64,000 nucleotides of DNA from a virus: positions 1 to 64,000 of IMG/VR virus record IMGVR_UViG_3300020582_000006, one strand, 5' to 3'. The notes beneath the pieces were generated by a model that worked only from the letters and a program-made list of their open reading frames with translations, searched no databases and was not told the origin of the DNA. Within the stretch, counting starts at the first letter, position 1, and each line of letters opens with the position of its first letter. Below, piece after piece: positions 33,074-46,951 of the stretch. The position numbers and the translations under genes were made by a program.

Positions 33074-33288
33074 ATCGTGATCCTGCAGAGCGGGCAGTGT
33101 TCGCCCGGTGGCGGCGGTTCTCGTCGCGGCTTCGACATTTGCTCACCATTCAGCCAGGATTTGATCCAGCCTTCAAGCACCGGCCCCATCTTGCGGCCCT
33201 CCCGCGCCAGCCGTGACTGGAATTCATTCAGCAAAACTCTTTCGATCCGGAATCCGGTTTGCTTCGAGTCGTCTCTTAGTCTGGCCAT
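33070..33288 (-). CDS. Ribbon-helix-helix-like DNA-binding protein
   Basis: TGFRIERVLLNEF...GRKMGPVLEGWI pattern. Confidence 0.5.
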   Translation of the reverse strand: MARLRDDSKQTGFRIERVLLNEFQSRLAREGRKMGPVLEGWIKSWLNGEQMSKPRREPPPPGEHCPLCRITI

Positions 33289-33300
33289 TTTAATTGTCCT

Positions 33301-33942
33301 TTAAACCATAGCCTGTTGTGCCCATATAGCCTGTTTTTTTCGGCTTTCGGTGAGCGCCCAGAGGAACGTATCGAAGTGCTTGCGGAAGGTTGAGAACGGA
33401 TACCAGTGCAGCTTGAACGTACCGTCCTTTTTCAGCTGCACAACCAGACGGCGATAGCCGTAACAGGCATAAGGGCCGACGCAGGCCTGCGCGTAACTGG
33501 CCAGCTGCGGCCCCCAGGACTCGGTTTCTTCGCCTGTCTTCCAGTCGAGGATCGTCCTGTCGGCGCCCCGGTACAAACCCTTCACGTCGAGCATGCCGAT
33601 ATAGCGGAAGCGCGGACAATAGACAATGTGCTCGATCAGTTCGGGAACAAAGCCCGACTCGATCATGAACTTGCGCCGCGCGACCAGATAAGGCTCGATC
33701 TCAGGCGCTACCGTCGCCGGATCGAGGTCATCCTCCATCTCATAGTGGATGGCGCGATGCACCGCCGTGCCGCGCTCCTGCGCATACTGCAGGACGTCTC
33801 GCGGCACGCGTGAGAAGTCCGAGATCCCGGCGTCTTCGAGCACCTGCGTGGTCGAGCGCGTTACGCTCCCGTCGACCGTGTAGATATGGCCAGCGGGCCG
33901 GAATGCGATTACCGGATTGTCGATGCGGGGATCGACCAGCAT
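33301..33942 (-). CDS. PD-(D/E)XK exonuclease (RecE/Cas4-like partner of RecT)
   Basis: HIYTVDG, STTQVL, RGTAVH, GMLD...DWKTG and QLASY motifs. Confidence 0.8.
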   Translation of the reverse strand: MLVDPRIDNPVIAFRPAGHIYTVDGSVTRSTTQVLEDAGISDFSRVPRDVLQYAQERGTAVHRAIHYEMEDDLDPATVAPEIEPYLVARRKFMIESGFVPELIEHIVYCPRFRYIGMLDVKGLYRGADRTILDWKTGEETESWGPQLASYAQACVGPYACYGYRRLVVQLKKDGTFKLHWYPFSTFRKHFDTFLWALTESRKKQAIWAQQAMV

Positions 33943-34119
33943 TTATGCGGTCTTCTTCTGTTTTCGTCTGTCGAGGAACTCGCGCAGCGCCTGGCTGACC
34001 ACGTACTCGCGGTCCATATTCCCGTTGGCCTTGCAGTAGTCTCGCAACTCATCCACCAGATCCGAAGGCAATCGGGGATGGATCCGCTCCAGAGTAAGCT
34101 CCTCTTTGTTCTTTGCCAT
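33943..34119 (-). CDS. Arc/CopG-type RHH regulator (58 aa, below the ORF-track cutoff)
   Basis: MAKNKEELTLERIHPRLPSDLVDELRDYCKANGNMDREYVVSQALREFLDRRKQKKTA; first gene left of the divergent promoter region. Confidence 0.7.
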   Translation of the reverse strand: MAKNKEELTLERIHPRLPSDLVDELRDYCKANGNMDREYVVSQALREFLDRRKQKKTA

Positions 34120-34267
34120 GCAGCCTCTATCCTATTACGCACCTGGACATCAAGGCAACACAGAAGTAAACACTATGTTATAGTTACCAACGATGTTTTT
34201 AAAGGGAGAGAAAAGCTTGAAAAATAGCCACGGACAAGGAACCGAAACTGAATGGAGTTAACGTTAA
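34120..34267. promoter_or_regulatory. Divergent promoter region
   Basis: AT-rich intergenic region between oppositely transcribed operons; extended -10 TGTTATAGT. Confidence 0.55.
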
Positions 34268-34720
34268 ATGAACAATAACGCATCCCGATTTGAGGCAATG
34301 GCCATGCAATCACTTCTGCCCGGTTTAACATTCGCGGTCGAAAGCGCGCTCGAACTGCTGAATACGACTCGCGCTGTTCTCGGGCTCGAACCTGTACTGA
34401 TCCGGAATGGCGACATTCGGGAATCCCGGCCAAGGCGCGGGCGCCCTCGCAGAGCAGCCGACGAACCCGAAGTGCAGGAGGAGTCAGAGACGGCCGAGAC
34501 TCTCGCAGTCGTCGCAGCGCCGCGCAAAGCCAGAGCAAAACGGAAACAATGGACGGCGAAGCAGCGCAGGGATATCGGTGAACGCACCCGGCAACGCTGG
34601 GCGGCGATGCGCGAAGCAGGCATCACGCCGCGCAATAACTCGCCTTCAACCGCCGAGGTCGAACGCGCCCTCAAGATCATCGAGCGAAGAAACAGGAAGT
34701 CCACAGCCAAGGCCGCTTAG
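34268..34720 (+). CDS. Basic putative DNA-binding protein
   Basis: RRGRPR AT-hook-like motif; R..I.E...QRWA motif. Confidence 0.6.
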   Translation: MNNNASRFEAMAMQSLLPGLTFAVESALELLNTTRAVLGLEPVLIRNGDIRESRPRRGRPRRAADEPEVQEESETAETLAVVAAPRKARAKRKQWTAKQRRDIGERTRQRWAAMREAGITPRNNSPSTAEVERALKIIERRNRKSTAKAA

Positions 34721-34731
34721 AAAGGAACTCT

Positions 34732-35124
34732 ATGAACCGTGTGAACATCGAACCCAAGCGACAACACGCCGTGCGTATTTCCAATCGTCAGTACGGTCAG
34801 CTTCGCGCGATCCTGAATTCACCGAACGCGACCGCGGGCATCGAGGATATTTCCGCCTTCAACCAGCTCACTCTCGGCGCGAACAAGCGCCGGGGATTCA
34901 TCGCCGAGACACGTCGCAAAAACGGCATTACTCTGACCTTTGAAGGCCGTCAGGTACTGAAAGCGTTCGATCAGGCCGACTTCATGCGCAAAGTGGCGAG
35001 CCTGAATTTTTCCTCTTATCTGAGGCTGGAGCCGCGCATGATTCACTTCGCGCCGCTTGAGCGTAAAACAGCTCAGACCGCGAGAGAGTATCAAGAGGCC
35101 CGGCGCGCGACTACTGCGGCATAG
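34732..35124 (+). CDS. Hypothetical protein (winged-helix-like)
   Basis: RRGFI...ITLTFEGRQVL; AAGGA RBS. Confidence 0.55.
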   Translation: MNRVNIEPKRQHAVRISNRQYGQLRAILNSPNATAGIEDISAFNQLTLGANKRRGFIAETRRKNGITLTFEGRQVLKAFDQADFMRKVASLNFSSYLRLEPRMIHFAPLERKTAQTAREYQEARRATTAA

Positions 35125-35130
35125 AAGCGA

Positions 35131-35508
35131 GTGAAGACCATCTTTTGTTGCGGCTGTCAGCGCGAGATCGAGGCGCGGCTGACATACGGGGCCGAGATCT
35201 ATCCCCACCGGCGCGATCTGTGGCTGCTGCCGTTCTGGAAGTGCGACGGCTGCCAGAACTATGTCGGCTGTCATCACAACTCACGCCAGCCGCACAGTCC
35301 ACTGGGTAATATTCCGACCGCGATCATGCGGGCGCTGCGCGTCGAGATCCACTCGGTGCTCGATGGCTTATGGAAGCACAAAGGGTTCCGCCGCGGCGAC
35401 GTTTACCGGCGTCTTTCGCAGCATATCGGCCGGCCCTACCATACTGGTGAGATAAGAACAGTCGAGGAAGCCCTTGCCATAAAGGGTTTCCTCGCGGACT
35501 TCAGATGA
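35131..35508 (+). CDS. Zinc-finger protein (DUF3268-like)
   Basis: EIYPHR.DL, C..C..YVGCH and PLG motifs. Confidence 0.75.
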   Translation: MKTIFCCGCQREIEARLTYGAEIYPHRRDLWLLPFWKCDGCQNYVGCHHNSRQPHSPLGNIPTAIMRALRVEIHSVLDGLWKHKGFRRGDVYRRLSQHIGRPYHTGEIRTVEEALAIKGFLADFR

Positions 35509-37891
35509 TCCTCCGTGCGCGGGATGTCGTGTTCGTCCTGGTCGCCGTGACACTCAGTCTCGCGATATGGGGGATCATCTGGCTCGCGAAACATCCCTGC
35601 ACCCGCTCGGTGACGCATCGCGTCTGGGTCGATCAAATCACGACTTACGTGGATACCGGCGGCGGGATGAGGAATGCGGACGGAGAGTTTATTCCCGGGA
35701 CGGGAATCAAGGTACCCTTCACGACACCGGCCCACTTCGAGGATCAAACTATCTGTATGGAGCGCCGCCCATGAGGAGTTACACCTACAGGCGCAAAGGA
35801 AACCGGCTCATCGACGGCGATACGCCGCCGATGCCGCCGCCCACGCTTTCTCCCGCGCAGGAGAAGGCCGAACTGCTGCGCCTCGCGCGGCTTTGTGAAG
35901 AGGGCTGGTCGACGATGACGGCGATCCCGCTCAAAGCCCCGCCGATGCCAAAGCGCAATTACCCGATCCCCGAACGCTGGCGGAGAGCTGTGTGATGCCA
36001 CCTGTAACATCGCATGTTACGCCTTTTCAGGCGATCCAGGTCCTGTTGTCATTACTCAGCCTGTTCTTTATTGTGATGGCGGCCTGTATCTCAGTCCGGG
36101 CCCTGCGCACGCTGAAAAAATTCATCAGGCTGCAGGGCCGCATCAACGATCTGACGGATGAGCGGCTGCAGATGCTCGAACGGGAGGAGTACCGGTGATA
36201 GCGGTCCGTGTGTTCCTGTCGATGACGCTGACCGTGCTCGCCGCGCTCGAGTGGTACACGGTCCTCGAGCGCGTCTCGCTCGACTGGTATGCGGACCAGC
36301 TGGTCGCTCAGGTGGAGATGGAGACGGGCCGCAAGTACCCGGCTGCCGCCAAAGCGCAGCTCTACGCCATCGTGAACAAAGCGCCGTCCTACTCGAAAGT
36401 GCTGCCGCCGGCGCTGGTCAACACCGTGACGGCCGCGGGCGCGTGGGCGCTGACATTCTGGGCGATTCGGCGCAGAGATCGCGAGGAACAGGAACAATCA
36501 AAACAAGATGACCTGCAGTTATTGCGACGAAGAGATTCTCAAACATGAGCCGGTCGGCTTCAACGGCTCGATGCATCAGGAGTGCGCCTGCCGGGCCATT
36601 ATGGGATCTGCGGCTCACCAGATGCACATATGCCACTGCTTCGGCGGCCGGGGGGAAGACCCGCCTGAATTCACGGCACGCCAGGGCGCGAAACTGGCAT
36701 GGGAGACGTTCCAGGCACTTAAGAAAAAGAGAGAACAGGCCAGCCTGAACTGAGATGAAGATCATTCACATACTCGGCACCGCATCAGGCCAGCCTCATC
36801 CCTATGACGACATGTACCTGCTGCAATACGATCCCACCGTGCGCCCGGATGGTATGATCCTGCTCGAAGTCGTCTCGGATCCGGCCTGCGCCAAACGCTT
36901 CGCCGACGCCGGCGAGGCGCTCGAAGAGTGGCGGCGTTCCAACGGCAGGCTGCGGCCGGACGGGAAGCCGGATCGCCCGCTGACTGCCTTCACCGTCGAT
37001 ATTATTGACGCGCCATGACACGCAAACGAGTGGTCCAGATCCAGCGGCTGTCTATCTGTGAATGCGGCTTTCCGCTGCTCAAAGTGGAAATCGGGATCGG
37101 CGCTGAGTACACGATCGATCTCGACAGCGTGAGCACGAACGGCTGGCACCTGAAGTGCGGCGGCTGCGGTACGGTGATCCGCGATATCACGACGGTGATG
37201 GCGTCGTCGACGCTCGATCCGAATCGTCCGCCCGCGCGCCTGCCTTACGCGATCTTTCTCGGCAGCCGCGTGGCGCCGGTCCTTACAACTCCCACCCGAC
37301 AGGACAAAACCCAATGACCGAACACGAAGTCATGATTTGCGCCCCGGCAGACGGGCTATGGACCATACCCGGCTCAGTTTTCGATAAGATCTGTGTGCGC
37401 TGCGCCGCGCCCGTCATGATGGCCCCGTCCGGCGTTCGTTACATGGAAACTCACACGGTCGAAGTGATCTGCATGATCTGCTTCGATCCGCAGGGCCGCG
37501 ACCGCAACGTCGCGAAAAAGATCCGCCTGACCGCGCCGGTCAGCGTCATCAATGGAGAACTTATGAACGTCACCCGGAACTACCGCGCGAGGACCACGAA
37601 TTGACGCCGCCGATGGGTTACTCGCGGGCATCTGAAGCCGAAGATGCCGACGTGATCCTGCGCATGTCCGAAAACGACTACATCATGCTGCTGACGTCTC
37701 TGGGTATGGCTTATGCTTCAGGCCTTCAGGAATCCCTGCCGATGATCAACCGCATCAACGCAGGCAATCCGGACTTTTCGCCGTATGAATCCTCGGAAGA
37801 CCTCGAAGCGAGAGCGGCGCAGACGGTCGCGATGCTCCGGAAACTAATGGAAGGGACGGACTCATTTCATGTGGGAATGCGCTCAGTGTAG
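35505..37891 (+). CDS. Run of about nine small coupled hypothetical genes (35505-35774, 35771-35995, 35992-36198, 36195-36548, 36508-36753, 36755-37018, 37015-37317, 37314-37604, 37601-37891)
   Basis: Overlapping start/stop coupling; several are membrane or Cys-rich proteins. Confidence 0.55.
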
Positions 37892-39065
37892 TCTGACGCG
37901 AGAGAAGCCGGTAAGCCGGCCGCCGATGGGCTGGAAACGGCGCGGCAAAGCCATCTATTGCAGGGACTGCTGGCGCAAGCTCTACGTGCTGCGGGCTGTC
38001 ACGATCCCGGTCGTGAGCCCGCTGACGCTCAAGTACAAAGCTGATGAAACGCTTCACCCCTGCGACTGGGATGAGTTCGGGAAACGCCTGCGCGAGCAAT
38101 GGGCGCTGATCACCCAGGCTTCCAACTGGATGATGACCGAGATGTACATGCGGGATGACCGGTCCCGCGACAAAGGCAAGCTGCAGCCGATGCCCGGCGT
38201 CTATCTCTATCCCGAGACGCGCAAACAGTTTCCCGGCATGGCCTCGCAGACCACCGCGGCCCTCGAGAACCAGATCGGCAAGAAATACCGGGCGAAGCGT
38301 TTCGATGTGATCTGGACCTGCCGCGCCAGCCTGCCTACCTTCCGCTACCCCACGCCTTTGCCGGTACCTCATCAGGCATGGTCAATAAGACTTGACGATA
38401 ACTGCCCGCTCGTCTCCGCGCCTATTGGAGATGCGCGTGTCGAATTTCGCCTGCGCAACGGCCATCAGTTCCGCCGGCAGCTGCTCGCCGTGAAGCAGAT
38501 CATCGCGGACGAAGCCGAACCCGGCCAGATGGATCTCTACCGCCAGGGCAAATCGGTGATGTGCAAGCTGGTCGCCTGGCTGCCGCGCCGTCCGGTCGAG
38601 ACGAAGATCGAAGGCACGCTGTTCGTACGCGCGGATGCGCAGGCGCTGCTGGTGGCTCTGAACGTCAAGGATGACCGTCTGTGGACCTACCATGGCGATC
38701 AGGCGCGTCGATGGTCAGCAGCGCACCGCCGGTTGCTCCAGCGCCTTGCAGACGACAGCAAGGCCGAACACAGGCCCACTGTGCCTTTCCACGCGCGGCG
38801 CGAGGCCGCGGCCCTCAAATATCGGGATCGCATGTCGAGCCTGACTCACCAGATCGCCGCTATGACTGTGAACTACGCCTTACGGCGGAAGTTCGCCGCC
38901 GTGCGCTATGACGACACCGCCCGGGACCTGTTCTGCCCCCACTTTCCCTGGCACATCCTGCGGCTGAAGCTCGCTGAGAAATGCGATGCGGCCGGCATCG
39001 AGTTCCATGCGGTGACACCCGGGGAACCGGAAGAAGTCTTGCACGAACCGGTAATGGAGGAGTAA
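37869..39065 (+). CDS. Nuclease-dead Cas12f/TnpB-like protein with N-terminal zinc ribbon
   Basis: Cas12f-like motif order: YPETRKQFPGMAS, SLPTFRYPTPLP, VKQIIADE, H-x-IA...VNYA, FPWHILRLKLAEKCDAAGIEF. RuvC-I GID is replaced by FVR, RuvC-II E by D (VRYDD), and the protein ends before the C-terminal CxxC and RuvC-III. Confidence 0.75.
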   Translation: MWECAQCSLTREKPVSRPPMGWKRRGKAIYCRDCWRKLYVLRAVTIPVVSPLTLKYKADETLHPCDWDEFGKRLREQWALITQASNWMMTEMYMRDDRSRDKGKLQPMPGVYLYPETRKQFPGMASQTTAALENQIGKKYRAKRFDVIWTCRASLPTFRYPTPLPVPHQAWSIRLDDNCPLVSAPIGDARVEFRLRNGHQFRRQLLAVKQIIADEAEPGQMDLYRQGKSVMCKLVAWLPRRPVETKIEGTLFVRADAQALLVALNVKDDRLWTYHGDQARRWSAAHRRLLQRLADDSKAEHRPTVPFHARREAAALKYRDRMSSLTHQIAAMTVNYALRRKFAAVRYDDTARDLFCPHFPWHILRLKLAEKCDAAGIEFHAVTPGEPEEVLHEPVMEE

Positions 39066-39225
39066 ACTTTTGGTTTCCGCGCCACCGACAGGCGCAGGCC
39101 GCTTATTCGCTGGAAACGCTTGCCGATCCAGTCGACGCGGCAAAGCTGCTGTTAAGGGTTCCTGATATGGGCGCAAGCCGCAGCCGGGAAAACGATCATT
39201 GAAAGCAGAATCGACCGATTCGGTA
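39066..39225 (+). ncRNA. Putative guide-RNA scaffold (omega/tracr-like) with a single CRISPR-like repeat and guide
   Basis: Hairpins 39079-39095 and 39120-39143; 37-nt GGGCGCAAGCCGCAGCCGGGAAAACGATCATTGAAAG at 39169-39205; putative guide CAGAATCGACCGATTCGGTA. Confidence 0.55.
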
Positions 39226-39241
39226 CAAGACACCGGGTAGC

Positions 39242-40680
39242 GGTCGTCTCGGCATCAACTCCGACTGCTGATCGGATCGGGCTTGTTGTGGGCCTCCTAC
39301 CTGATCGTTCGGTATGGCTGCTCGCGCGACGTTCGGGTGGGATTCGTTCGGTTCATATCTGGATTCGTTCGGGGGGCTCGCAACTCGTCGGATCGGCACA
39401 AGAGACGGCAGATCGGTCGGTTGGAACAGCCAGATAGGTCGGGGCAACGCCGGATGAGGCTTTCGGGTGCTTAATCCAGATTCCCGTCGGGAAAGATGAG
39501 TCAACCGGTTCGGGGCCTGCTACCTGATCGGTCGGAAACCCGTCGCCGAACTGATCGGGAGATGATCGGGCGTTCGGGGGGATAGGTCGGGGTACTCGCA
39601 GTCCTCGGGTCGGGAATAGTTCGGGAAACGATCGGGAACTGATCGTGTCGGGTCTTGCATCTGTCCACCGTCTCGGGTTGCGAGTCATTCGTTCGGGTGG
39701 TCTCGATGGCTGGTCGTCTCAGGCCCTGAAAGACCAGATCGTTCGGGTTTCGCGGATGTGGTTCGTTCGGGTGTTGCATCTGCAACCATCGTTCGGGTTT
39801 TCAACTTCGTTTCGGCGGGGACTGTCGGACCACCGAAGGCTGGTCGTTCGGTCGCCACTGCCGCTCAGATCGTTCGGGACACAACTGGGAACTGATCGTG
39901 TCGGGTCTTGCATCTGTCGATTCGGGATTTTCGGGTCACGACCATTCGAGATCGGTCGGGTGGGGCAAGAACAAGATCGGTCGGGGTAAGTAGCGAGATC
40001 GGTCGGTATCCGATTTGTTCGGGTCTTTAACTCGTCCTCTGGCCTGTTCGTTCGGGGGATGTTAGCGGAGATCGGTCGGGCATCCTGGCCTGTTCGTTCG
40101 GGAAATAGCCTAAGCGGAGATCGGTCGGGCAACTTGAAAGAGGCCTCTGTATTTCGGGCACCCCGTCAAGGAGTTCGTTCGGGGATATATCGGCCGGGAA
40201 ATGGACAAGCCGGCGTCGAGATCGGTCGGGCTGTAGCAAGGAGTGCCGGTCGGGTCGGTGGAATCAGCAGCCGAAGCTATCAGGCGTCGAGATCGGTCGG
40301 TCAAGGAATGGTTTTTGATCTTTCGGGGCCTGGGCGAAATATCTGCAATCGGTCGGGGAAAGATTTGGATCGTTCGGTTCGCCGCGACCGTACCGGGCGT
40401 CGTGATCGGTCGGGCCAAGCTCATGATCGGTCGGGCTGTGGAGTGATTTCATCGGGATTACCGGCGTTTGCGTGATCGGTCGGGATTTGTTCGTCAGTGA
40501 GGATCGGTCGGGGCTCGCGCTGTTCCCAGGCTCTCGTCAGCGGTCATCGGGATTACCGGCGATCCGGGTCGGTCGGTCAGAAAAAGCTCGAGTGCCTTTT
40601 TCCGGCGGGGTGTTTCAGCGGAGCTTTGTTTCGGTTCAATGAATTGATCGTTCGGTATCTGTCACTTTTCCACAGGTCGG
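39242..40680 (+). repeat. Strand-polarised array of short (GA)TCG(G/T)TCGG(G) motifs with variable spacers
   Basis: About 29 exact TCGKTCGG copies (by-eye count) plus many degenerate ones, all on the + strand, mostly 20-28 nt apart; no consistent coding frame. Confidence 0.9.
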
Positions 40681-40829
40681 CGCGCCGACTACTGGTTCTT
40701 TCTACAGGAGTTAATACAGGTCAATAAGGAAGGGCGCCCCTAAATCTACGTATGCGCGCCCCTAAATCTACGTGCCCGGGTTCGCATCGCATTGATTCGA
40801 CTGAAACCAAAGCGCCCCTAAATCTACGT
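40666..40829. promoter_or_regulatory. Iteron-type plasmid replication origin
   Basis: Three 18-bp GCGCCCCTAAATCTACGT copies (40734, 40756, 40812); DnaA-like box TTTTCCACA at 40666; AT-rich ACAGG repeats; adjacent to the rep gene. Confidence 0.8.
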
Positions 40830-40847
40830 GCAAAAATGCAGAGATTC

Positions 40848-41834
40848 TCAGGGTTTTCCTCGTTTCCCCGCTGCCGGGCGAATCGCCTGGCCTGGTCGGA
40901 CGACGAGGAAATCGGCCGTCAGCTCTGCCGGACACGCAGGCCAAAGTCCGCGAACGGTATCCATCCATTTCGATATCTGTTCCCGGAATCGACGTGGTCG
41001 CGCGTAGTCTATTACCCCTAATTGAAATTCCAGTCCCGCTTCTCCGAATATGGGGATGAGTTGCTCCTGCGTTGCCGTGAAGCAGCGCCAGATGAGCCAA
41101 CACGTGAAATCCAGTGCGCCCGGAGCATGCGCCAGCTGCCGGACTATGTTCATATCAATCGGGATCGGGTGGTTTTTTACTTCGTTCCAGAACTGCTCTG
41201 ACAGCACGATGACGTTCTGAAAGTCTTCACCCGGCAATCCGGGGTGGTCGCCGTTTGAATACCAAAGCCGCATCTGATCGAAGAAATTGAACCGTGACCG
41301 ATCGATGTATCTGGCCTGTCCTCTTGTGCCGTCGGTACTGAAGTAGATCGTGGCATCAAAAAGGCGCTCGAAGCCCTCGACGATGCGTTTGTAGTGGAAC
41401 CCGCTGGTACTGAGTCCGAACTCGCGGAGCATCTCAGCTGCGCTGTCGAAGGTAACGCGTCGGTTCTGTTTGATCACAGCAAGAGTACTGATCCATAAGG
41501 GAATAAGCCGGTCCTGACCGAAGGGAAGCCCCAGTTTGGAAGTGGTCGCTATGCGTAATGAGAACCGCCCGTTGACTCGCGTATACTCCTTGACCCCTGC
41601 AGCTGGCCGCCGGATAGGAAGCCCGCACAGAACGAATGGACGCGTGTTATAGCCTATCGATTGTCGGCCTTCCTCTCTCGCCGCCCGGACCAGTTCGATA
41701 CCTTCGACGCGCTTCTGAAATTGCTTTGATACGCCACGAAGTTCGCGTCGGACCGGCTCGGCTGGAAGATCCAACCCGTTGACGAAGTCCGTATCCCCTG
41801 CTCTCACCAATGCCGGTTTTATGTTGTCTTTCAT
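40848..41834 (-). CDS. repA: Plasmid replication initiator (RepA_C / IncW-like)
   Basis: FVLCGLP, RVNGRFSL, GLPFGQDRLI, LSEQFWNEV..HPIPID and ALDF..WL.WR motifs; ATGA-coupled start. Confidence 0.85.
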   Translation of the reverse strand: MKDNIKPALVRAGDTDFVNGLDLPAEPVRRELRGVSKQFQKRVEGIELVRAAREEGRQSIGYNTRPFVLCGLPIRRPAAGVKEYTRVNGRFSLRIATTSKLGLPFGQDRLIPLWISTLAVIKQNRRVTFDSAAEMLREFGLSTSGFHYKRIVEGFERLFDATIYFSTDGTRGQARYIDRSRFNFFDQMRLWYSNGDHPGLPGEDFQNVIVLSEQFWNEVKNHPIPIDMNIVRQLAHAPGALDFTCWLIWRCFTATQEQLIPIFGEAGLEFQLGVIDYARPRRFREQISKWMDTVRGLWPACPAELTADFLVVRPGQAIRPAAGKRGKP

Positions 41835-42196
41835 AGCTCGTGGCACTCGAACAGACTCCCCTGGCTGTAGATGGAACGTAACGCCTCGCGCGGGATCTCC
41901 CATGCTGGCACACTCGCGTACTCGATCTCGGGCAGCAGCCACAGCTGGCCGGACTCGCGCGCCCGCCGGCGGCGCATGACGGCGATCTTATGCCGCGCGT
42001 CGGCCCGGGAGTGGCAGGGAGCGCAGCGGATCCGCACGCTCGATGTCCGGGGATCGTGCGTCTCATGCGTGAGCTGCACGTACCGCGGAATCGGGCACAG
42101 ACAGTCGCGGCAGACGGCGCCGCGCGAGGCGATCAGGGCCAGCCGGTACCGCTGCCACTCCGGACCATAGAACTGCCTGTAAGACGCCCGGATCAT
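41831..42196 (-). CDS. HNH-like zinc-binding protein
   Basis: C..C...LTH..H...CAPCH pattern. Confidence 0.55.
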   Translation of the reverse strand: MIRASYRQFYGPEWQRYRLALIASRGAVCRDCLCPIPRYVQLTHETHDPRTSSVRIRCAPCHSRADARHKIAVMRRRRARESGQLWLLPEIEYASVPAWEIPREALRSIYSQGSLFECHEL

Positions 42197-42462
42197 CGCT
42201 TTACGTGGGCTCTCTTCTTCCCAAGCGGCACTGTCGGCACAATCAGGCCGGACAGTATGTCGGCTTCTCTCGCCAGCGCGATCGGATTGGGCCGCACCGC
42301 TCCCGTGAACCAGCTGGAAAGCCCGGCTGCAGCTTCGGCGCAGCCTGAGCACAGTGTTTCGTCATGCCACGAGCACGGCGGATCGCAGGCGTTCTCTTCC
42401 GTGCAGGCGCAGACTCTGCAGGCACGTTGTTTCGGCTTCGCCGGGAGGCGCGGTTTTCTCAT
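42193..42462 (-). CDS. Cys-rich small protein
   Basis: CRVCACTEENAC...CSW...LCSGC. Confidence 0.6.
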   Translation of the reverse strand: MRKPRLPAKPKQRACRVCACTEENACDPPCSWHDETLCSGCAEAAAGLSSWFTGAVRPNPIALAREADILSGLIVPTVPLGKKRAHVKR

Positions 42463-42986
42463 CGGGCAGCCTCGGCTTTCTTCGGGAACAGCCCCATGAG
42501 GATGCCTTGATAGCCGCTGTGTTCGTCGGCAACCGTGACTAACGGATCGCCGACCAGTTCGATCCGGCCGTCGACGATCTTGTATTCCTGAATGGCAGTC
42601 TGCTGGTAATCGGCTGTCTCGAGCGAACAGGCGACAGCCTCTCGTCTGGGGATTATCCCCAGGTTCATGCAATCCTCGATCGTCAGCTGGAATACCTCGC
42701 GGAAGGCTTGCAGTTCCGGCCGCGTACTGAATGAGATCAGCGTATCGCTCAACATGATCACGGCCTGGATCCCGCCCGACTGGACGCGCCGCCGCAGGTC
42801 TTCGCCCAGTTCAATCTTGCACTCCCGATTGTTGGTCACCTCGTCGTCAACCAGGACGACGTCATAGGAGCCGTCCTGGCGGATCAGATGGAACATCTGC
42901 GTCAAATCGCCCTTGTTCAGGACGATCTGGTCGATGCCGTAGTTCAGCGTTCTCGCTGCCATAGCGATCAGTTCCTCTGTCGTCAT
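42459..42986 (-). CDS. Hypothetical protein (apparent paralog of 53459-54007)
   Basis: Coupled 175-aa ORF. Confidence 0.65.
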   Translation of the reverse strand: MTTEELIAMAARTLNYGIDQIVLNKGDLTQMFHLIRQDGSYDVVLVDDEVTNNRECKIELGEDLRRRVQSGGIQAVIMLSDTLISFSTRPELQAFREVFQLTIEDCMNLGIIPRREAVACSLETADYQQTAIQEYKIVDGRIELVGDPLVTVADEHSGYQGILMGLFPKKAEAAR

Positions 42987-42991
42987 GGGCC

Positions 42992-43216
42992 TTAATCCAT
43001 GTGCTCCAGCTTCTCGGCCGCCGACTGCACGATAAACGCGCTGCGGCTGATGCCCAGGCGTCTGGCCCCCTTGTCGATGCGGCCAAGCAGAACCGGATCG
43101 ATCCGTATCATCGTGGGTTTCTTGTTGGCCTGTTCGTCGGGCAACCTGCCCGACTTCGAGATGAAGGCTTTGGCCTTGCGTTCTTTGACTGCGGTGGGAT
43201 TTCTAGCGATTGCCAT
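42992..43216 (-). CDS. RHH partition/regulator protein (ParG/CopG-like)
   Basis: TMIRIDPVLLGRIDKGARRLGISRSAFI; directly downstream of parA. Confidence 0.8.
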   Translation of the reverse strand: MAIARNPTAVKERKAKAFISKSGRLPDEQANKKPTMIRIDPVLLGRIDKGARRLGISRSAFIVQSAAEKLEHMD

Positions 43217-43865
43217 TCGATACCTCTTGTATATCGTTTGTATAGAGGAATTTTACAAGCTGATTCATCTCGTCCGCGGCCTTCTGGTCCTCGCGGTATT
43301 CGGCCACGGACAGGCCCAGCGCGGCCGCGTTCGGGAAGGCCTTGCGCCGTCCGATCATGCAGGGGGCGATCTCGATGCCGGCGATCTCGCGCAAAGCGGC
43401 CAGCGCCGCCTCGTTGTCTTTGCCCTGCGGATCGGCCTCATTGATGACGGCGACGGCGCGCAGCGACTCATTGATCTCGCGGGCTTCCGCTACCAGCTCG
43501 CATGTCTCTTCGCTGCGCCACAGATCAAAGCTGCGCGGCTTGAGCGGGATCAGGACGGTATCGGCGACCGTGAGCGCCGCCCGCAGGCTGCCGGTCGCGT
43601 CCTCGCCGCCGATGTCGATCACGATGTCGGCGAACTTCGAGGTCAGCTGCCGGACCTGAGTCCGGATATTCGCGCCGCGCAAAGCGACGGCGGTGTAACC
43701 CGACTTGCCCTTCGCTGTCGTGCGCAGATCGGTGAACGCGAGCGCCGCGCCCTCGGCGTCGATCAGCAGAACGTCCCGGCCGTTCGCGGCTAACGTGATT
43801 GCCAGATTCACTGCCAGGGTCGTTTTGCCAACGCCGCCTTTCAGGTTGCCGACCGTAAAAATCAT
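43203..43865 (-). CDS. parA: ParA-family partition ATPase (type Ib)
   Basis: KGGVGKTT Walker A, VLLID and DIVID motifs; 220 aa. Confidence 0.92.
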   Translation of the reverse strand: MIFTVGNLKGGVGKTTLAVNLAITLAANGRDVLLIDAEGAALAFTDLRTTAKGKSGYTAVALRGANIRTQVRQLTSKFADIVIDIGGEDATGSLRAALTVADTVLIPLKPRSFDLWRSEETCELVAEAREINESLRAVAVINEADPQGKDNEAALAALREIAGIEIAPCMIGRRKAFPNAAALGLSVAEYREDQKAADEMNQLVKFLYTNDIQEVSNGNR

Positions 43866-44044
43866 GCAGGCTCCTCTTCAATCGGGATTTCATCAGAAGC
43901 CCCGGTGACCCATTCGATGCCCTGTTTCACGCCCTGTTCGTAGGACATCCCCGGCACGGAACTGCCGCCGTGTTCCTCCCACGCGTTGGCGGAGTTGAGA
44001 ACATTGTCGATTTCAGAATCGGTTCGTTTGATCTTGTATGCCAT
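43862..44044 (-). CDS. Hypothetical protein
   Basis: MAYKIKRTDSEID...; AAGGA RBS; first gene of the par/rep operon. Confidence 0.6.
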   Translation of the reverse strand: MAYKIKRTDSEIDNVLNSANAWEEHGGSSVPGMSYEQGVKQGIEWVTGASDEIPIEEEPA

Positions 44045-44120
44045 TGCTTCCTTTCCACATGGACCGATTATCAAACGAGTGACAACAGATATACAAGCGC
44101 AATCGGTTATGATACGACAA

Positions 44121-44588
44121 ATGATGAAACCGTTCACCGAAGGCACGCCGCCGCCCGCCCGCTTCAATGCAGGCGAACGGGCGTTCTATAACGGCAAGTA
44201 TCAGGCGATCCTGAAAGACGCCGGTGGCATGGTAATCCTTACCATCCGGCGCGAAGACCGGCGGCCGGTCACCGACTGGCGAGACGTGCAGTGGATCAAG
44301 AACCAGTTACTCGGTCCGGAGGTGGAGGCTGTGCAGCTCTTCCCGGCCGAGTCGCGGCTGGTCGATACTTCGAACCAGTTCTATCTCTATGCCTCCAAGC
44401 AGGAAGGCTATCGCTTCCCCTTCGGCTTCACTGAGCGGCGGGTAGCTGAGGGCATCAGCGTCAAGCTCGAAAACTGTGCGCCGTCACAGCAGCGGCCGTT
44501 CGCCGATCACGTCCGGCCCGCGGATCTGAAAGAGAGCGAGGAACTGCTGGCGCAGGAACTCCGCGAGGTCGGGATCGAACCGCTGTGA
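44121..44588 (+). CDS. Phage hypothetical protein
   Basis: DWRDVQWIKNQL.GPE.EAVQLFPAESRLVD motif. Confidence 0.7.
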   Translation: MMKPFTEGTPPPARFNAGERAFYNGKYQAILKDAGGMVILTIRREDRRPVTDWRDVQWIKNQLLGPEVEAVQLFPAESRLVDTSNQFYLYASKQEGYRFPFGFTERRVAEGISVKLENCAPSQQRPFADHVRPADLKESEELLAQELREVGIEPL

Positions 44589-44881
44589 TCTGTGACATCT
44601 GCCTTGCGCCGCACGAAGAACTGTGGGGATTCTCAGTCGCCGGCTTCTATGAACCGTTTACCGATGTCGTGAACGTTGCCGGCGAGTGGGGAGTCTGCGA
44701 CGAATGCAAGCTGCTGATCGACGCGCGGGACGCCGCCGGGATTGTAGCTCGCGTCAAGACTGACAGCGCCCGGGTGACGCGGCTTATCGCGCCGTTCTAT
44801 GTGATGCTGATCGCCAACATCACGGGGCCGCTGGTCCGGATTCGCGACCAGACGACCCCGCTCTATGGCATTATCGAGTGA
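44585..44881 (+). CDS. Cys-containing hypothetical protein
   Basis: CDIC...WGVCDEC; resembles the N-terminus of 57856-58347. Confidence 0.55.
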   Translation: MICDICLAPHEELWGFSVAGFYEPFTDVVNVAGEWGVCDECKLLIDARDAAGIVARVKTDSARVTRLIAPFYVMLIANITGPLVRIRDQTTPLYGIIE

Positions 44882-45232
44882 GCTTCCAGTTCCTCTGAAA
44901 TCAGGTGCGGTTTTCTGCAATCGGGATACGCGAGTCCCGAAACAGAAAAGCCAGCGGTTCACGGCCGCTGGCTGGTTTCAATCCGGGGACTGAAAGGCGG
45001 TGGTTCTATGTACACCGTTAGACTGATGGTCACGATCCATATGATCGTGATCGTGATAACGCTGTCGTTCCGTAAGGGCCGATAAGCTGAATCAGGGGAA
45101 GCTGGGCAGCAACCCGGCTTTCCCTCAGTCTTGAAAATACCACAGACGGGATAAAATCTGGTCTCAGGCTGCCTAGTCCGGCCAGACGACAAGCGGGAAA
45201 CCTCACCCGCTGGCAGCCTGCCTCGAAGAACA

Positions 45233-45826
45233 TCATTTCCATAACTTCTCGAACCGGGCCGCATTCGTAGCGGTATACTTCACCGTGTGCTCGATCTTGC
45301 GATGGCCGAGGTAGTCCTGAATGAGCCGGGTGTCGGCGCCCTGATCGGCAAGGGCGAAGCCGCAAGCGTGCCGCAGCATGTGCGGGTGGGCCGTGAAGGG
45401 CAGGTCAGCCGCTGCGCTCGCGGTCTTGAGCAGATAGTTCACGCTCGACCGGTGCAGAGGCTTGCGCTGTTCCGAGACAAAGAAGGCTTTGACGGTCGCC
45501 GGCACGTTCATGGCTGTCCGGACTTTGAGCCAGGTCCTGATCGCCCGCACTTCCTCGACGCGCAGCGGGTGAGTGGTCGAGAGCCCGCGCTTGAGGCGTT
45601 TGACATGCAGGATGCGGCTTTCGGTGTCCACATGGTCGAGCGGCAGGCTGCAGATCTCCGACACGCGATAGCCGTGGCGGAAGCTGAGAAGCAGCAGGCA
45701 GCGATCGCGCTCCCGGTTGCGGCTGATCTCGGAGGCGGCGTCGATGAGTTTCTCGACCTCGCGTGCGGTAAGGTGCAGGCGGTCTGATTTGTCGGGTTTT
45801 TCGTCTTGTTTTGCGTTGTTTCCCAT
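45233..45826 (-). CDS. FimB/FimE-like tyrosine recombinase (catalytic domain only)
   Basis: HGYRVSE, RLK, HPHMLRHACG and YLGH...HTVKY catalytic R-K-H-R-H-Y set. Confidence 0.9.
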   Translation of the reverse strand: MGNNAKQDEKPDKSDRLHLTAREVEKLIDAASEISRNRERDRCLLLLSFRHGYRVSEICSLPLDHVDTESRILHVKRLKRGLSTTHPLRVEEVRAIRTWLKVRTAMNVPATVKAFFVSEQRKPLHRSSVNYLLKTASAAADLPFTAHPHMLRHACGFALADQGADTRLIQDYLGHRKIEHTVKYTATNAARFEKLWK

Positions 45827-45905
45827 TTTGTTGAAAGTAAGCCTTTCTGGAATCGGCTCAAGTCCGCGCCAAACGCGGGTGAGTCCTTCTTACTTTCCAC
45901 AAAAT
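45825..45905. repeat. 17-bp inverted repeat at the recombinase start (putative recombination or operator site)
   Basis: ATTTTGTTGAAAGTAAG (45825-45841) and CTTACTTTCCACAAAAT (45889-45905); 16/17 match; 47-bp spacer. Confidence 0.75.
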
Positions 45906-46248
45906 AGCCCTATTTGTCGAGAGTAACCGTACTCAGGGTCCTATAACCCCACTTCCACCGGCCAGATCGCGTACAACCTGGCATAGTAAGGGTCCGCCGT
46001 TCTTCTTCGAGAACCAGGCGCTCTCACTCTCCGCAGATCTTCCGCCTCAGCTCGCGCTCACTTAGAGCGTCATTCACAAAATTTTATACATCCTTTTCGA
46101 ACCTTCATGCATTGATAAAAGCCCGAAAATTCGCAAGTCCGTACAAACAGGACTTATCTTACATTTCAGTTGACGAATAAATGAACAATCATGTAGCATT
46201 TGGCAGGTTCCGGTGAGCGTAATTACGCGTCTTACCTTGTAAGTCTGG

Positions 46249-46932
46249 ATGGTTTGTATGCTGGAACACGTGAATGGATCGGAATTACGATCCACGTTCC
46301 CTGCCGCCGATCAGAGATTAGTCGCCCGATCCAGCATCATCACTGACAGGCTGATACCGCCGATGGCGCGCCTGCTCTATCTGTTTCTCGACGACAAAGC
46401 CAATGGGGAAGATCACGTCGCCATAGATCAGGCGGAAGCCGGACGGATGCTCGGAGTCTGCCGGCGGCAGGTCAATAAACTGGCCAGTTTACTGCAGAAT
46501 GCGGGCTATATTATGGCCCGCCGCTCGCGCCGGGGATCGGCTGAGTATCGCTTCGTCTGGCGCAAACCGGCCGCTCTGGCAGCCTCACTTTCCCGGGAAA
46601 GTCCGGCCGTACCGTTGCCGGACAACGCGATCTATGCGGATATTATTTCGCAAATCAGCGGGGAAACTCCCAGTCCGCGGCTGCTCGACAGAATCCGTGA
46701 CGTCGAGACCCGGCTCGATGTGCCGGAACAAGTGATATGCCGCTGGCTCGACGATAAATGCCGCGAACTCAGAGGCAGGGCCGGCGGGCGCCCGTTCGTC
46801 GGGATCCTGGGCAAAGCAGTCGTCGAAGACCTCCCGGGCTGGCTGAGAGTCAATGCGGACCGCGTGCGCGAAGACTTCCGCCGGCGCGATCTGCGCCGCC
46901 AGATGCAACTCGGCTTCGCCCGCTCGTCCTGA
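46249..46932 (+). CDS. Helix-turn-helix replication initiator-like protein
   Basis: ARLLYLFL, QAEAGRMLGVCRRQVNKLASLLQNAGYI winged HTH; followed by a DnaA-box region. Confidence 0.6.
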   Translation: MVCMLEHVNGSELRSTFPAADQRLVARSSIITDRLIPPMARLLYLFLDDKANGEDHVAIDQAEAGRMLGVCRRQVNKLASLLQNAGYIMARRSRRGSAEYRFVWRKPAALAASLSRESPAVPLPDNAIYADIISQISGETPSPRLLDRIRDVETRLDVPEQVICRWLDDKCRELRGRAGGRPFVGILGKAVVEDLPGWLRVNADRVREDFRRRDLRRQMQLGFARSS

Positions 46933-46951
46933 CTCGAAACCTTATGCGAAA

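What the first reader, a model, noticed from the sequence alone, without database searches (positions are those of the whole stretch)
39242..40680. 1.45-kb non-coding, one-strand array of TCG(G/T)TCGG motifs with unique spacers
Seen: about 29 exact 8-mers (by-eye count) and roughly as many degenerate copies, all in one orientation, often 22-25 nt apart (e.g. 39363, 39387, 39411, 39433). Spacers are mostly unique, with a few longer local duplications (e.g. GGGAACTGATCGTGTCGGGTCTTGCATCTGTC twice). The array fills the gap between the dCas12f RNA and the iterons. It is not a CRISPR array, iteron set or simple tandem repeat. Possible roles: mini-guide array processed from the same transcript, centromere for the RHH or ParB proteins, polar primase/helicase/Chi-like signals next to the origin, or a protein-sponge RNA.
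Basis: partly seen in the sequence, partly recalled or inferred. Interest (0 to 1): 0.85.

Follow-up and report, generated by a model that had tools for sequence, protein, structure and literature searches.

The report
Half-repeat guide array of dead Cas12f
The 1.45-kb run of TCGG motifs is most likely a very compact CRISPR-like guide-RNA array: about 27 to 60 eleven-base "half repeats", each followed by a short unique segment, that fit one helper RNA and a non-cutting mini-Cas12f gene just upstream in a soil phage-plasmid.

Summary
In detail: 29 exact TCG(G/T)TCGG copies lie on the + strand in 39242-40680, against 7 elsewhere on + and 1 on -.

The array belongs to the upstream gene, not to the origin.
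- The 398-aa protein folds like Cas12f. It appears to lack the RuvC-I aspartate and the whole C-terminal end.
- A conserved scaffold RNA of about 150 nt follows the gene (39077-39223). It has strong covariation, including a pseudoknot.
- The array motif GATCG(G/T)|TCGG|G is the 3' arm of the scaffold's last hairpin plus the pseudoknot tetrad.
- Four independent relatives carry the same kind of array. Each uses its own motif, matched to its own scaffold.
- More distant relatives have ordinary 36-nt-repeat arrays.
- A strain variant has swapped iterons and RepA but keeps the motif.
- Four soil metatranscriptomes hold the scaffold joined to the proximal array and none of the neighbouring genes.

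Best reading: one tracr-like scaffold is shared in trans by many mini-crRNAs carrying 10-17-nt guides, for binding DNA without cutting. Targets, TAM and processing are unknown. My literature searches found no description of such arrays. This scan noted similar arrays earlier on other phage DNA.

The parts
37869..39065 (+). Gene for a 398-aa nuclease-dead, C-terminally truncated Cas12f-like protein (P0001), with an N-terminal CxxC...CxxC.
   Evidence: AF2 model with pLDDT 91.3. Foldseek top match is AsCas12f 8j12_B (E 2.7e-17, TMq 0.58), and natural dCas12f 9n9c_A scores 2e-14. The A1 profile hits OsCas12f 9nzq at 4.1e-7. In that alignment the column of the Cas12f 'GVDMG' aspartate faces V-R-T, and the protein ends just after 'GIEFE'. 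There is no Pfam, NCBIfam or PHROG hit.
39077..39223 (+). Guide-RNA scaffold, tracr-like, with five helices and a pseudoknot.
   Evidence: The model R1 hits 39077-39229 at 92 bits, the only hit in the window. On 81 distinct scaffolds, 93.9% of cells are paired against 72.0% in shuffles (0 of 500 as high) and 33-45% when slid. RNA contigs of three runs start at 39083, 39083 and 39086.
39079..39095 (+). Hairpin 1. Its loop CCGA (39085-39088) is the 5' half of the pseudoknot that pairs with the tetrad TCGG just before each guide.
   Evidence: The pseudoknot helix is 96.7% paired on 81 scaffolds. The pair at columns 12/288 reads AU 31, GC 18, CG 13, UA 5, UG 3, other 6.
39191..39197 (+). 5' arm of the terminal hairpin (AACGATC). 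This is the anti-repeat to which the arm GATCGT of the array units is complementary.
   Evidence: The position is homologous to the 5' arms of the relatives. The T-variant handle pairs with this region at -11.8 kcal/mol, and 0 of 300 shuffled handles do as well.
39209..39223 (+). The scaffold's own (cis) 3' arm and tetrad, which are degenerate. It contains CGACCGAT (39212-39219), the exact complement of the G-variant handle core.
   Evidence: Only 4 of 6 pairs form in the cis hairpin. The G-variant handle pairs here at -15.2 kcal/mol, and 0.3% of shuffled handles do as well. The role of this second docking site is unexplained.
39224..40680 (+). Mini-repeat (half-repeat) array. There are 79 TCGG cores. 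27 units have 5 or more of 6 arm pairs to the scaffold. Each 11-nt handle is followed by a unique segment of about 10-17 nt.
   Evidence: 27 of 79 TCGG inside against 4 of 637 outside. Own-key specificity is shown. RNA contigs run continuously from the scaffold into the array (39083-39622 and 39174-39663) and on to 40142.
40734..40831 (.). Three iterons (GCGCCCCTAAATCTACGT). They are neighbours of the module, not part of it.
   Evidence: family D8. The variant L043 has replaced them with a different iteron while keeping the array motif.
40848..41942 (-). RepA initiator gene. It is a neighbour of the module, not part of it.
   Evidence: Pfam RepA_C at 2.8e-10. tblastn finds no homologue next to any of the 33 related loci.

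Best explanation
The array is the guide-RNA array of a phage-plasmid-borne, nuclease-dead Cas12f-like system, in a reduced 'half-repeat' form.

How it most likely works:
- Transcription starts at or just before the scaffold (about 39077-39083) and runs on the + strand into the array.
- Each unit has a 6-nt arm (GATCGT or GATCGG), the tetrad TCGG, usually a G, and then a unique segment of 10-17 nt.
- The arm pairs in trans with the single 5' arm of the scaffold's last hairpin (ACGATC, 39192-39197).
- The tetrad pairs with the loop of hairpin 1 (CCGA, 39085-39088). Together these rebuild the complete guide-RNA fold that relatives make in cis from a full 36-nt repeat.
- The unique segment then serves as a short guide. 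The protein, probably a dimer like Cas12f, binds matching DNA without cutting. It most likely blocks transcription of host genes or of rival mobile elements.

Shown here: the motif statistics; the Cas12f fold and the loss of catalytic parts; the scaffold and its pseudoknot by covariation; the lock-and-key match of motif to scaffold in four lineages; the link to the gene rather than to Rep or Par; and the presence of the scaffold-array junction in RNA libraries.

Inferred: pairing in trans, processing into small units, guide function, DNA binding, and the biological targets.
For: 1. The protein is Cas12f-like and dead.

2. The scaffold RNA is real. Model hits lie on the gene's strand in all 100 matches from 93 sources. 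On 81 distinct scaffolds, 29 of 31 pairs have compensatory changes and 93.9% of cells are paired, against 72.0% in shuffles (0 of 500 as high) and 33-45% when slid. On the 16-scaffold alignment the pseudoknot helix is 98.4% paired.

3. The motif equals the 3' arm plus the tetrad. 27 of 79 TCGG in the array have 5 or more of 6 pairs to ACGATC, against 4 of 637 elsewhere in the record.

4. Lock and key across lineages. Each array matches its own scaffold's arm and loop:
- window 27 units, L043 30, L012 35, L022 42, L013 17;
- foreign keys give 0-5 in most cells, up to 17 in the L022 array;
- the minus strand gives 0-1.

5. There is a homology series. 10 loci have ordinary repeats spaced 71-76 nt, each with its own 5' arm. 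The mini-type loci have spacings of about 20-40 nt and no 5' arm of their own. L012 carries both kinds.

6. The scaffold's own cis 3' arm is degenerate in 7 mini-array scaffolds (3.4 Watson-Crick pairs of 6, pseudoknot 3.3 of 4), against 5.2 of 6 and 4 of 4 in 21 other scaffolds. These 28 rows were hand-picked from 95.

7. The array follows the gene. There is no conserved neighbour gene in 34 loci. RepA is absent beside all 33 related loci. The strain variant L043 has different iterons and RepA but the same motif.

8. Strain differences are modular. 12 indel blocks of 5 nt or more (6-38 nt) separate the two variants, while 39667-40278 is nearly identical.

9. RNA evidence. In 4 of 4 metatranscriptome runs laid, contigs at 100% identity join the scaffold to the array. 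Depth in 39071-39537 is 15.2, 16.5, 9.3 and 4.6, falling along the array. The RepA, ParA and phage-gene bins are at or near 0.

10. Short guides are plausible. Passages of PMC13472631 report 14-16-nt guides with activity above 10 nt. Passages of PMC13622181 report a 9-nt guide.
Against: - No target was found. Guide prefixes match the phage's own 85 kb only at chance level.
- There is no match between either variant's guides and the other variant's ori/rep region.
- The array of a relative has no significant match in its own MAG.
- The host genome is unknown, and 10-17-nt guides cannot be searched meaningfully in large collections.
- The TAM is unknown.
- No small-RNA data exist. The RNA evidence is from assembled contigs, which give no strand, no ends and no proof against DNA carry-over. 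The contrast with neighbouring genes argues for RNA but does not prove it.
- About half of the TCGG copies have poor arms (52 of 79 have 4 or fewer of 6 pairs), so many units may be dead.
- The G-variant handle pairs better with 39209-39220 than with the 5' arm. The simple model does not explain this.
- No cas1 is present in the record (the record is 82% complete), so how units arise is unknown.
- L009 and L028 fit their own keys only weakly, with 4 and 5 units.
Confidence: 0.65

Rival explanations
1. The array RNA makes the same contacts with the scaffold and protein, but acts as a sponge or regulator rather than a source of guides. Its many handles would titrate the scaffold or dCas12f, or hold them in an inactive store.
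For: Half of the units are degenerate. No targets were found. The G-variant handle has a strong alternative docking site that would sequester the tetrad. The long precursor is abundant in RNA libraries.
Against: Good units keep a minimum spacing of 21 nt with modes at 21-28 nt, as expected if a segment of guide length is needed. The intervening segments are unique, and they are conserved between strains over 600 nt. Ordinary CRISPR-type arrays in relatives are homologous to these units. Four lineages keep 17-42 well-matched units.
Confidence: 0.12
2. Self-targeting nucleoprotein array. The mini-crRNAs bind back to their own DNA, because the handle end serves as a permissive TAM. The origin-proximal 1.4 kb would then be coated with one-way RNA-guided roadblocks that affect replication, copy number or partition.
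For: Every guide matches its own DNA perfectly. The protein cannot cut. In this window the array abuts the iterons. All units point one way. A related dCas12f has a TAM of a single G (passage of PMC13472631), and G follows the tetrad in 18 of 27 good units.
Against: The position next to an origin is not conserved in any relative. The base or bases before the guide covary with an RNA loop (CCGA:UCGG, CCGC:GCGG, CCAU:AUGG and others), which a protein-read TAM would not do.
Confidence: 0.08
3. A decaying CRISPR array. The short motifs would be eroded repeat remnants without present function.
For: Many units are degenerate. No adaptation genes are present.
Against: Erosion would not keep exactly the arm plus tetrad complementary to the locus's own scaffold in four lineages. 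It would not pack units at 21-28 nt, since eroded 72-nt units would stay about 72 nt apart. High RNA abundance also argues against it.
Confidence: 0.08
4. A DNA-level binding-site array for a plasmid protein (RepA, the RHH/ParA pair or ParB), acting as a centromere, a handcuffing site or a polar replication signal.
For: It lies 54 nt from the iterons, and the repeats are one-stranded and dense.
Against: The L043 variant changed its iterons and RepA but not the motif. Relatives with such arrays lack these genes. The motif covaries with an RNA, not with a DNA-binding protein.
Confidence: 0.03

Closest known systems
Natural nuclease-dead Cas12f (dCas12f) of Bacteroidota: the sigma-E-associated systems, and the briefly mentioned cluster next to CRISPR arrays (Hoffmann et al., Nature 2026, PMC13472631; PDB 9n9c and 9n9m). 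I read passages and figure legends only.
   Same: A Cas12f fold with a C-terminal truncation that removes part of RuvC. A structured guide RNA sits beside the gene. Guides are short (14-16 nt, active above 10 nt). DNA is bound without cutting. Some members lie beside CRISPR arrays.
   Different: Sequence similarity is only weak (A1 profile against 9n9c, E 1.6e-3 over residues 50-232). There is no sigma-factor or other conserved partner gene. Hosts are mostly Acidobacteriota and their phages (13 of 16 named MAGs). The array is built of 11-nt half repeats that need a shared scaffold in trans, which the passages I read do not describe. I could not see the Extended Data figures or the supplements.
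Type V-F CRISPR-Cas12f with tracrRNA (for example AsCas12f 8j12 and OsCas12f 9nzq).
   Same: It is the best structural match. The logic is dual-RNA: the 3' part of the repeat pairs with an anti-repeat, and the guide follows at the 3' side.
   Different: The protein here is dead and lacks the C-terminal part. Repeats here are 11 nt, against about 36 nt. The segments between them are 10-17 nt. No cas1 is present.
TnpB-like nuclease-dead repressors (TldR) (PMC13622181, passages read; Wiegand et al. 2024, search listing only).
   Same: Phage-borne or host-borne dead RNA-guided DNA binders with very short guides (9 nt in the oppF clade). They repress by blocking RNA polymerase.
   Different: TldRs use one omega-RNA-like guide per gene and derive directly from TnpB. 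This protein is closer to Cas12f than to TnpB (E 2.7e-17 against 1e-10 and weaker) and carries dozens of units.
Plasmid-borne interference-defective CRISPR systems: type IV and subtype V-M Cas12m (review PMC11656645, passages read).
   Same: They are carried by plasmids and prophages, lack cutting and often lack adaptation genes. Their shown role is silencing of rival plasmids or of host uptake genes. This is the role I infer here.
   Different: The effector families are unrelated or only distantly related. Their CRISPR arrays are ordinary.
Viral CRISPR mini-arrays and solitary repeat units (review PMC11656645; Shmakov et al. 2023 preprint, search listing only).
   Same: Reduced CRISPR parts carried by viruses.
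   Different: Those are 1-2 full-length repeats that borrow the host's Cas proteins. Here dozens of partial repeats serve an effector and scaffold encoded beside them.

Membership tests
Cas12f / type V-F effector family | Cas12f-type fold (WED, REC and RuvC core) | tested here: met
   Foldseek top hits are AsCas12f 8j12_B (E 2.7e-17, TMq 0.58) and other Cas12f chains; 73 matches have E at or below 0.001. The profile hits OsCas12f at 4.1e-7.
Cas12f / type V-F effector family | Intact RuvC D-E-D catalytic triad and C-terminal zinc ribbon (needed for an active nuclease) | tested here: not met
   In the HMM alignment, the aspartate of OsCas12f 'GVDMG' faces V-R-T of the family and the glutamate of 'MEDL' faces D. 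The alignment covers OsCas12f only to residue 375 of its 433, and P0001 ends 22 residues after 'GIEFH'. The naming of these motifs as RuvC-I and RuvC-II, and the placing of RuvC-III and the zinc ribbon in the missing part, is recalled and not from a call.
Natural dCas12f (nuclease-dead Cas12f) | Cas12f fold with a C-terminal truncation that removes part of RuvC, plus an adjacent structured guide RNA | tested here: met
   The definition is taken from a passage of PMC13472631.
dCas12f-sigmaE systems | Operonic ECF sigma factor (rpoE) partner | tested here: not met
   No conserved neighbour gene was found among 34 loci. None of the 10 window proteins scanned against Pfam is a sigma factor; only part of the window's genes was scanned.
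Canonical CRISPR array | Direct repeats of about 23-55 nt separated by spacers of similar length, at a regular period | tested here: not met
   The conserved unit in the window is 11 nt, and good units are spaced 21-28 nt or multiples of that. Relatives do meet the feature, with periods of 71-76 nt in 10 loci. The size range for repeats is recalled.
Canonical CRISPR-Cas locus | Adaptation genes (cas1) | tested here: not met
   PF01867 has no match in the 85,313-b record. The control found it in 7 of 14 known genomes. The record is 82% complete, so absence is not proven.
Dual-RNA (tracrRNA:crRNA) guide | Repeat-derived handle complementary to an anti-repeat in a separately folded scaffold | tested here: met
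   Complementarity of arm to 5' arm and of tetrad to loop holds in the window and in three further lineages. The duplex energy is -11.8 kcal/mol, matched by 0 of 300 shuffles. Pairing in the cell was not tested.
RNA-guided DNA binder | Guide-dependent binding to TAM-flanked DNA | not testable with these tools
   No targets or TAM could be derived.
Plasmid centromere / iteron array | Repeats co-inherited with, and specific to, a Par or Rep DNA-binding protein | tested here: not met
   L043 keeps the motif with different iterons and RepA. Relatives lack RepA, ParA and RHH.

The most novel reading that the evidence does not exclude
This would be a natural 'split-guide' system. A single tracr-like scaffold has given up its own 3' arm, and dozens of mini-crRNAs of about 24 nt share it. 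Each mini-crRNA is an 11-nt handle (6-nt arm, 4-nt pseudoknot tetrad and one G) followed by a guide of 10-17 nt. That would be the densest natural guide array known, at about 40 guides per kb. It would evolve by gain and loss of whole units without Cas1-Cas2. Phage-plasmids of soil Acidobacteriota would use it for multiplex silencing of host genes or rival elements.
Probability: 0.5. Interest if true: 0.85.

Novelty: new variant of a known kind. Interest (0 to 1): 0.8.

Why it matters
1. It would show how far a CRISPR repeat can shrink. Ten or eleven bases, split between a short helix and a 4-bp pseudoknot, would be enough to load a guide if a shared scaffold supplies the rest. That bears on how omega-RNAs split into tracrRNA and crRNA.

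2. It offers a design for very compact multiplex guide arrays for miniature dCas12f tools, at about 24 nt per guide.

3. It adds a widespread phage- and plasmid-borne family of non-cutting RNA-guided binders. More than 300 protein clusters were found, mostly from soil metagenomes. It extends the few clades studied so far.

4. It removes a false lead. The array is not part of the plasmid origin or partition apparatus.

Tried and rejected
Searches that found nothing:
- Rfam: no family in 37500-42000 apart from a chance-level hit at E 0.51.
- blastn of 39100-40900 against PLSDB plasmids and INPHARED phages: no match.
- Single-sequence scans of IMG/VR with P0001 and with RepA: no relatives. The profile A1 was needed.
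- Sequence-only searches of P0001 against Pfam, NCBIfam, PHROGs and PDB: nothing.

Target searches, all negative:
- Guide prefixes against the phage's own genome match at chance level. The maximum is 12 nt, and the distribution equals that of shuffles.
- The cis guides of 17 loci, searched within their own loci, found only themselves, plus two 12-mers with one mismatch in L019 and L027, which I take as chance.
- The L036 array against its own MAG found only itself and hits at E 0.16 or weaker.
- Window guides against the L043-specific ori/rep region, and the reverse, gave a maximum of 9 and 7 nt, no better than shuffles.

Other checks:
- The promoter and terminator scan found 0 sigma-70-like sites and 2 terminator-like sites, against 2.5 expected. 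It is uninformative.
- My first idea was that CGACCGAT (39212-39219) is the anti-repeat. This was revised. By homology it lies in the scaffold's own 3' arm region. The conserved anti-repeat is the 5' arm at 39191-39197. The complementarity to the G variant is real but unexplained.
- Polarised, leader-proximal gain of units is not supported. Both the proximal 450 nt and the distal 400 nt differ between the two variants, and only the middle part is shared.
- RNA cover was absent over 40472 onward and over the neighbouring genes in the four runs. These are contigs, so a hole proves nothing on its own.
- I did not use complex prediction, the protein atlas or the exhaustive representative search.
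- I opened no supplementary files. The Extended Data figures of PMC13472631 were not visible, only their legends, so I cannot say whether its 'distinct cluster near CRISPR arrays' includes this family.
Full report
**The observation.** The region 39242-40680 holds 29 exact copies of TCG(G/T)TCGG on the + strand. Only 7 further copies lie on the + strand of the 64-kb window, and 1 on the - strand. The 4-nt core TCGG occurs 79 times in the region (54.9 per kb, against 7.9 per kb outside). Its complement occurs 5 times. Lining up all copies gives the consensus (A/T)GATCG(G/T)TCGGG. GC skew is +0.15 to +0.26 over the whole stretch. The longest ORFs are 138 and 137 aa, and the spacings fall in all three frames, so a repetitive protein is not encoded.

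**The setting.** The window is the first 64 kb of an 85,313-b IMG/VR virus record that is linear and 82% complete.
- It encodes a tail sheath (E 4.8e-64), a baseplate wedge protein, tail fibre proteins, a RecT-like protein and a ligase.
- It also encodes RepA (Pfam RepA_C) with three iterons, a ParA/RHH pair and a ParB protein.
- It is therefore a myovirus-type phage-plasmid.
- Named relatives of the key gene come mostly from Acidobacteriota MAGs, 13 of 16.

**The gene upstream.** The ORF 37869-39065 (398 aa) has no hit in Pfam, NCBIfam, PHROGs or PDB by sequence. It does have more than 300 unnamed homologues.
- An AlphaFold model built on 33 homologues has pLDDT 91.3.
- The model matches Cas12f structures best: AsCas12f 8j12_B at E 2.7e-17 and TMq 0.58. 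It also matches the natural dCas12f 9n9c at 2e-14, and TnpB and Cas12k more weakly.
- The family profile finds OsCas12f at E 4.1e-7.
- In that alignment the aspartate of the Cas12f 'GVDMG' motif faces V-R-T, and the glutamate of 'MEDL' faces an aspartate. The protein stops shortly after 'GIEFH', whereas Cas12f continues for about 60 more residues. That those residues carry RuvC-III and the zinc ribbon is my recollection, not a tool result.
- The label 'dCas12f-like' is therefore justified.

**The scaffold RNA.** Starting 12 nt after the stop codon is a conserved non-coding element.
- An alignment of 16 loci gives five helices. 21 of the 27 predicted pairs show compensatory changes.
- I noticed that the loop of hairpin 1 (ACC-NN-CA) always complements the four bases just before the variable 3' part: CCGA:UCGG, CCGC:GCGG, CCAG:CUGG, CCAU:AUGG, CCUC:GAGG, CCGG:CCGG.
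- With this pseudoknot added, 92.3% of cells pair, against 70.2% in shuffles (0 of 500 as high) and 31-45% when slid. The pseudoknot helix itself is 98.4% paired.
- A covariance model built from this alignment found 100 matches in 93 sources. All lie on the strand of the gene. The window has one, at 39077-39229.
- On the 81 distinct scaffolds, 93.9% of cells pair. The variable pseudoknot pair reads AU 31, GC 18, CG 13, UA 5, UG 3, other 6. That alignment was fitted to the model's helices, but the pseudoknot was not part of the model.

**What the array motif is.** In relatives with ordinary arrays, the repeat is about 36 nt. It contains both arms of the last hairpin and then the tetrad, and the spacer follows. 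The window's motif is only the last third of such a repeat.
- It consists of a 6-nt arm (GATCGT or GATCGG), the tetrad TCGG and usually a G.
- The arm complements the scaffold's single 5' arm (ACGATC, 39192-39197). The tetrad complements the hairpin-1 loop (CCGA, 39085-39088).
- 27 of 79 TCGG in the array have 5 or more of 6 arm pairs, against 4 of 637 elsewhere in the record.
- These good units are never closer than 21 nt, with groups at 21-28 and 47-55 nt. That leaves unique segments of about 10-17 nt.

**The same design elsewhere, with other sequences.**
- L012/L080 use GGTCAC(Y)TCGG with 5' arm GGTGAC.
- L013 uses GGAAGCT-GCGG with arm AGCTTC and loop CCGU.
- L022 uses (GTA)GCY-TCGG with arm GGCTAC.
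- In a cross test, each array fits its own scaffold's key (27, 30, 35, 42 and 17 units). Foreign keys fit far less: 0-5 in most cells, up to 17 for the L012 key and 14 for the L009 key in the long L022 array, whose core is short. The minus strand gives 0-1.
- L009 and L028 fit only weakly (4 and 5 units), and I do not count them.
- Ten loci have regular 71-76-nt periods with a 5' arm in each repeat. L012 has both a mini-array and, after a second scaffold, regular repeats.
- In seven scaffolds that precede mini-arrays, the scaffold's own 3' arm is degenerate (3.4 Watson-Crick pairs of 6, pseudoknot 3.3 of 4), against 5.2 of 6 and 4 of 4 in 21 others. These 28 rows were picked by hand from 95. 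This is what one expects if the 5' arm is kept free for partners in trans.

**The array goes with the gene, not with the origin.**
- tblastn of 20 window proteins against 33 related loci finds only the dCas12f-like gene in all of them, and never RepA, ParA or RHH.
- All-against-all clustering of neighbouring ORFs finds no conserved partner.
- A metagenome contig (L043) encodes the identical protein (residues 167-398) and the same scaffold and motif. It has a different iteron (five copies) and a different RepA allele.
- The two arrays differ by 12 indel blocks of 5 nt or more (6-38 nt, often a whole unit or segment) and by a replaced first segment. The stretch 39667-40278 is nearly identical, and the distal ends differ completely.

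**RNA.** Thirteen of the 24 listed public runs that hold part of the stretch are soil metatranscriptomes. I laid four of them on 33000-47000.
- Contigs at 100% identity start at 39083, 39083 and 39086, within a few bases of the scaffold's 5' end.
- They run without a break into the array: 39083-39622 at depth 16.9, and 39174-39663 at depth 19.5.
- Weaker pieces reach 39919 and 40142.
- Depth falls along the array, for example 15.2, 8.4, 1.2 and 0 in X4.
- The bins over RepA, ParA/RHH and the phage genes are at or near 0 in all four runs. The dCas12f-like gene appears only in X4, at depth 2-3.
- These are assembled contigs. They show no strand and no true ends, and DNA carry-over cannot be excluded. 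Carry-over, however, would not single out this 1 kb in four studies.

**Mechanism.** I infer that one transcript carries the scaffold and the array. The handles of the units pair in trans with the scaffold's free 5' arm and hairpin-1 loop. The following 10-17 nt act as guides for DNA binding without cleavage.
- Guides of such length work in related dead effectors: 14-16 nt, with activity above 10 nt, in dCas12f-sigmaE (PMC13472631, passages), and 9 nt in an oppF TldR (PMC13622181, passage).
- By analogy with plasmid-borne type IV and V-M systems (PMC11656645, passages), the likely use is silencing of rival elements or of host genes.
- I could not find any target. The TAM, the processing enzyme and the way new units arise are unknown. 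The record has no cas1.
- One feature does not fit simply. The G-variant handle, about half of the good units, pairs better with 39209-39220 (-15.2 kcal/mol) than with the 5' arm (-9.1 kcal/mol). The T variant prefers the 5' arm (-11.8 kcal/mol).

**Rivals.** I considered four.
- An RNA sponge using the same contacts cannot be excluded.
- Self-binding of the RNPs to the array DNA next to the origin is possible in principle. The position is not conserved, however, and the base before the guide covaries with RNA.
- Simple decay of a CRISPR array does not explain the 21-28-nt packing or the maintained lock-and-key fit.
- Protein-binding repeats for Rep or Par are contradicted by the L043 swap.

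**Novelty.** Natural dCas12f proteins, some next to CRISPR arrays, are in print (PMC13472631). My searches found no description of half-repeat arrays served by a shared scaffold (terms dCas12f, nuclease-dead, Cas12f, phage-plasmid, TldR, TranC, RNA splitting, mini-array, truncated repeat, short spacers, anti-repeat and others). The library lacks most subscription papers, and I saw no supplements. This scan's own earlier notes describe similar arrays in other phage genomes (e1-6107566, e1-6008932, e1-6019570). I saw them after reaching my reading, and they are unchecked AI notes, not independent evidence. I class the finding as a new variant of a known kind, and rate it as of high interest.

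Noticed in passing
L043:2420-3690 versus window 40680-41850: A near-identical strain variant has the same dCas12f protein and 99% identical flanks, but a different iteron (five copies of a 22-nt unit) and a different RepA allele. This looks like a swap of replicon specificity (incompatibility) between otherwise identical phage-plasmids.
   Followed up: partly
window 39209-39220; L022:7352-7359: The degenerate 3' region of the scaffold contains an exact reverse complement of one handle variant: CGACCGAT against ATCGGTCG in the window, and CCCGAGGC against GCCTCGGG in L022. This may be a second docking site or an alternative fold. It is unexplained.
   Followed up: partly
L032:6352-6364 and L037:6349-6361; genomes G001 and G002: Two chromosomal relatives in different Acidobacteriota MAGs share the same 13-nt start of the cis guide. 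With up to 1 mismatch, this 13-mer occurs 28 and 15 times in their genomes, against 2 and 0 for the reversed control. The flanks of the exact copies show no common motif. It may be a multi-site regulator or a composition effect.
   Followed up: partly
L012:7194-7347 and 9289-9438: One phage locus has two scaffolds. The first has a degenerate cis arm and is followed by about 35 mini-units. The second has an intact hairpin and is followed by regular repeats at 72-74 nt.
   Followed up: partly
L016, L031 and L084 (3-4 scaffolds); L048, L049, L050 and L069 (2-3 scaffolds): Several loci carry tandem full-length scaffolds, each presumably with its own guide. This is a third way of multiplexing in the same family.
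   Followed up: no
L014:1-480: About 26 tandem copies of an 18-nt unit lie at the contig start, upstream of the dCas12f-like gene. They are unrelated in sequence to that locus's repeat, which has a period of 72-74 nt downstream.
   Followed up: no
L032:1854-4988, L034:666-4247 and L037:1856-4993: Three chromosomal loci share a large conserved gene of about 1,040 aa directly upstream of the dCas12f-like gene. I did not annotate it. PMC13472631 mentions efflux-system targets for a CRISPR-associated dCas12f cluster.
   Followed up: no
window 39634-39886 (run X9): One RNA contig joins 39886 back to 39634. This coincides with the 50-nt duplication at 39616-39665 and 39869-39918. It is probably an assembly effect or an array variant lacking or repeating 253 nt.
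   Followed up: no
window 41831-42352 (-): A 173-aa ORF with a weak HNH-endonuclease PHROG hit (E 2.1e-5) overlaps the 5' end of the longest RepA reading frame, so the true RepA start may lie further downstream.
   Followed up: no
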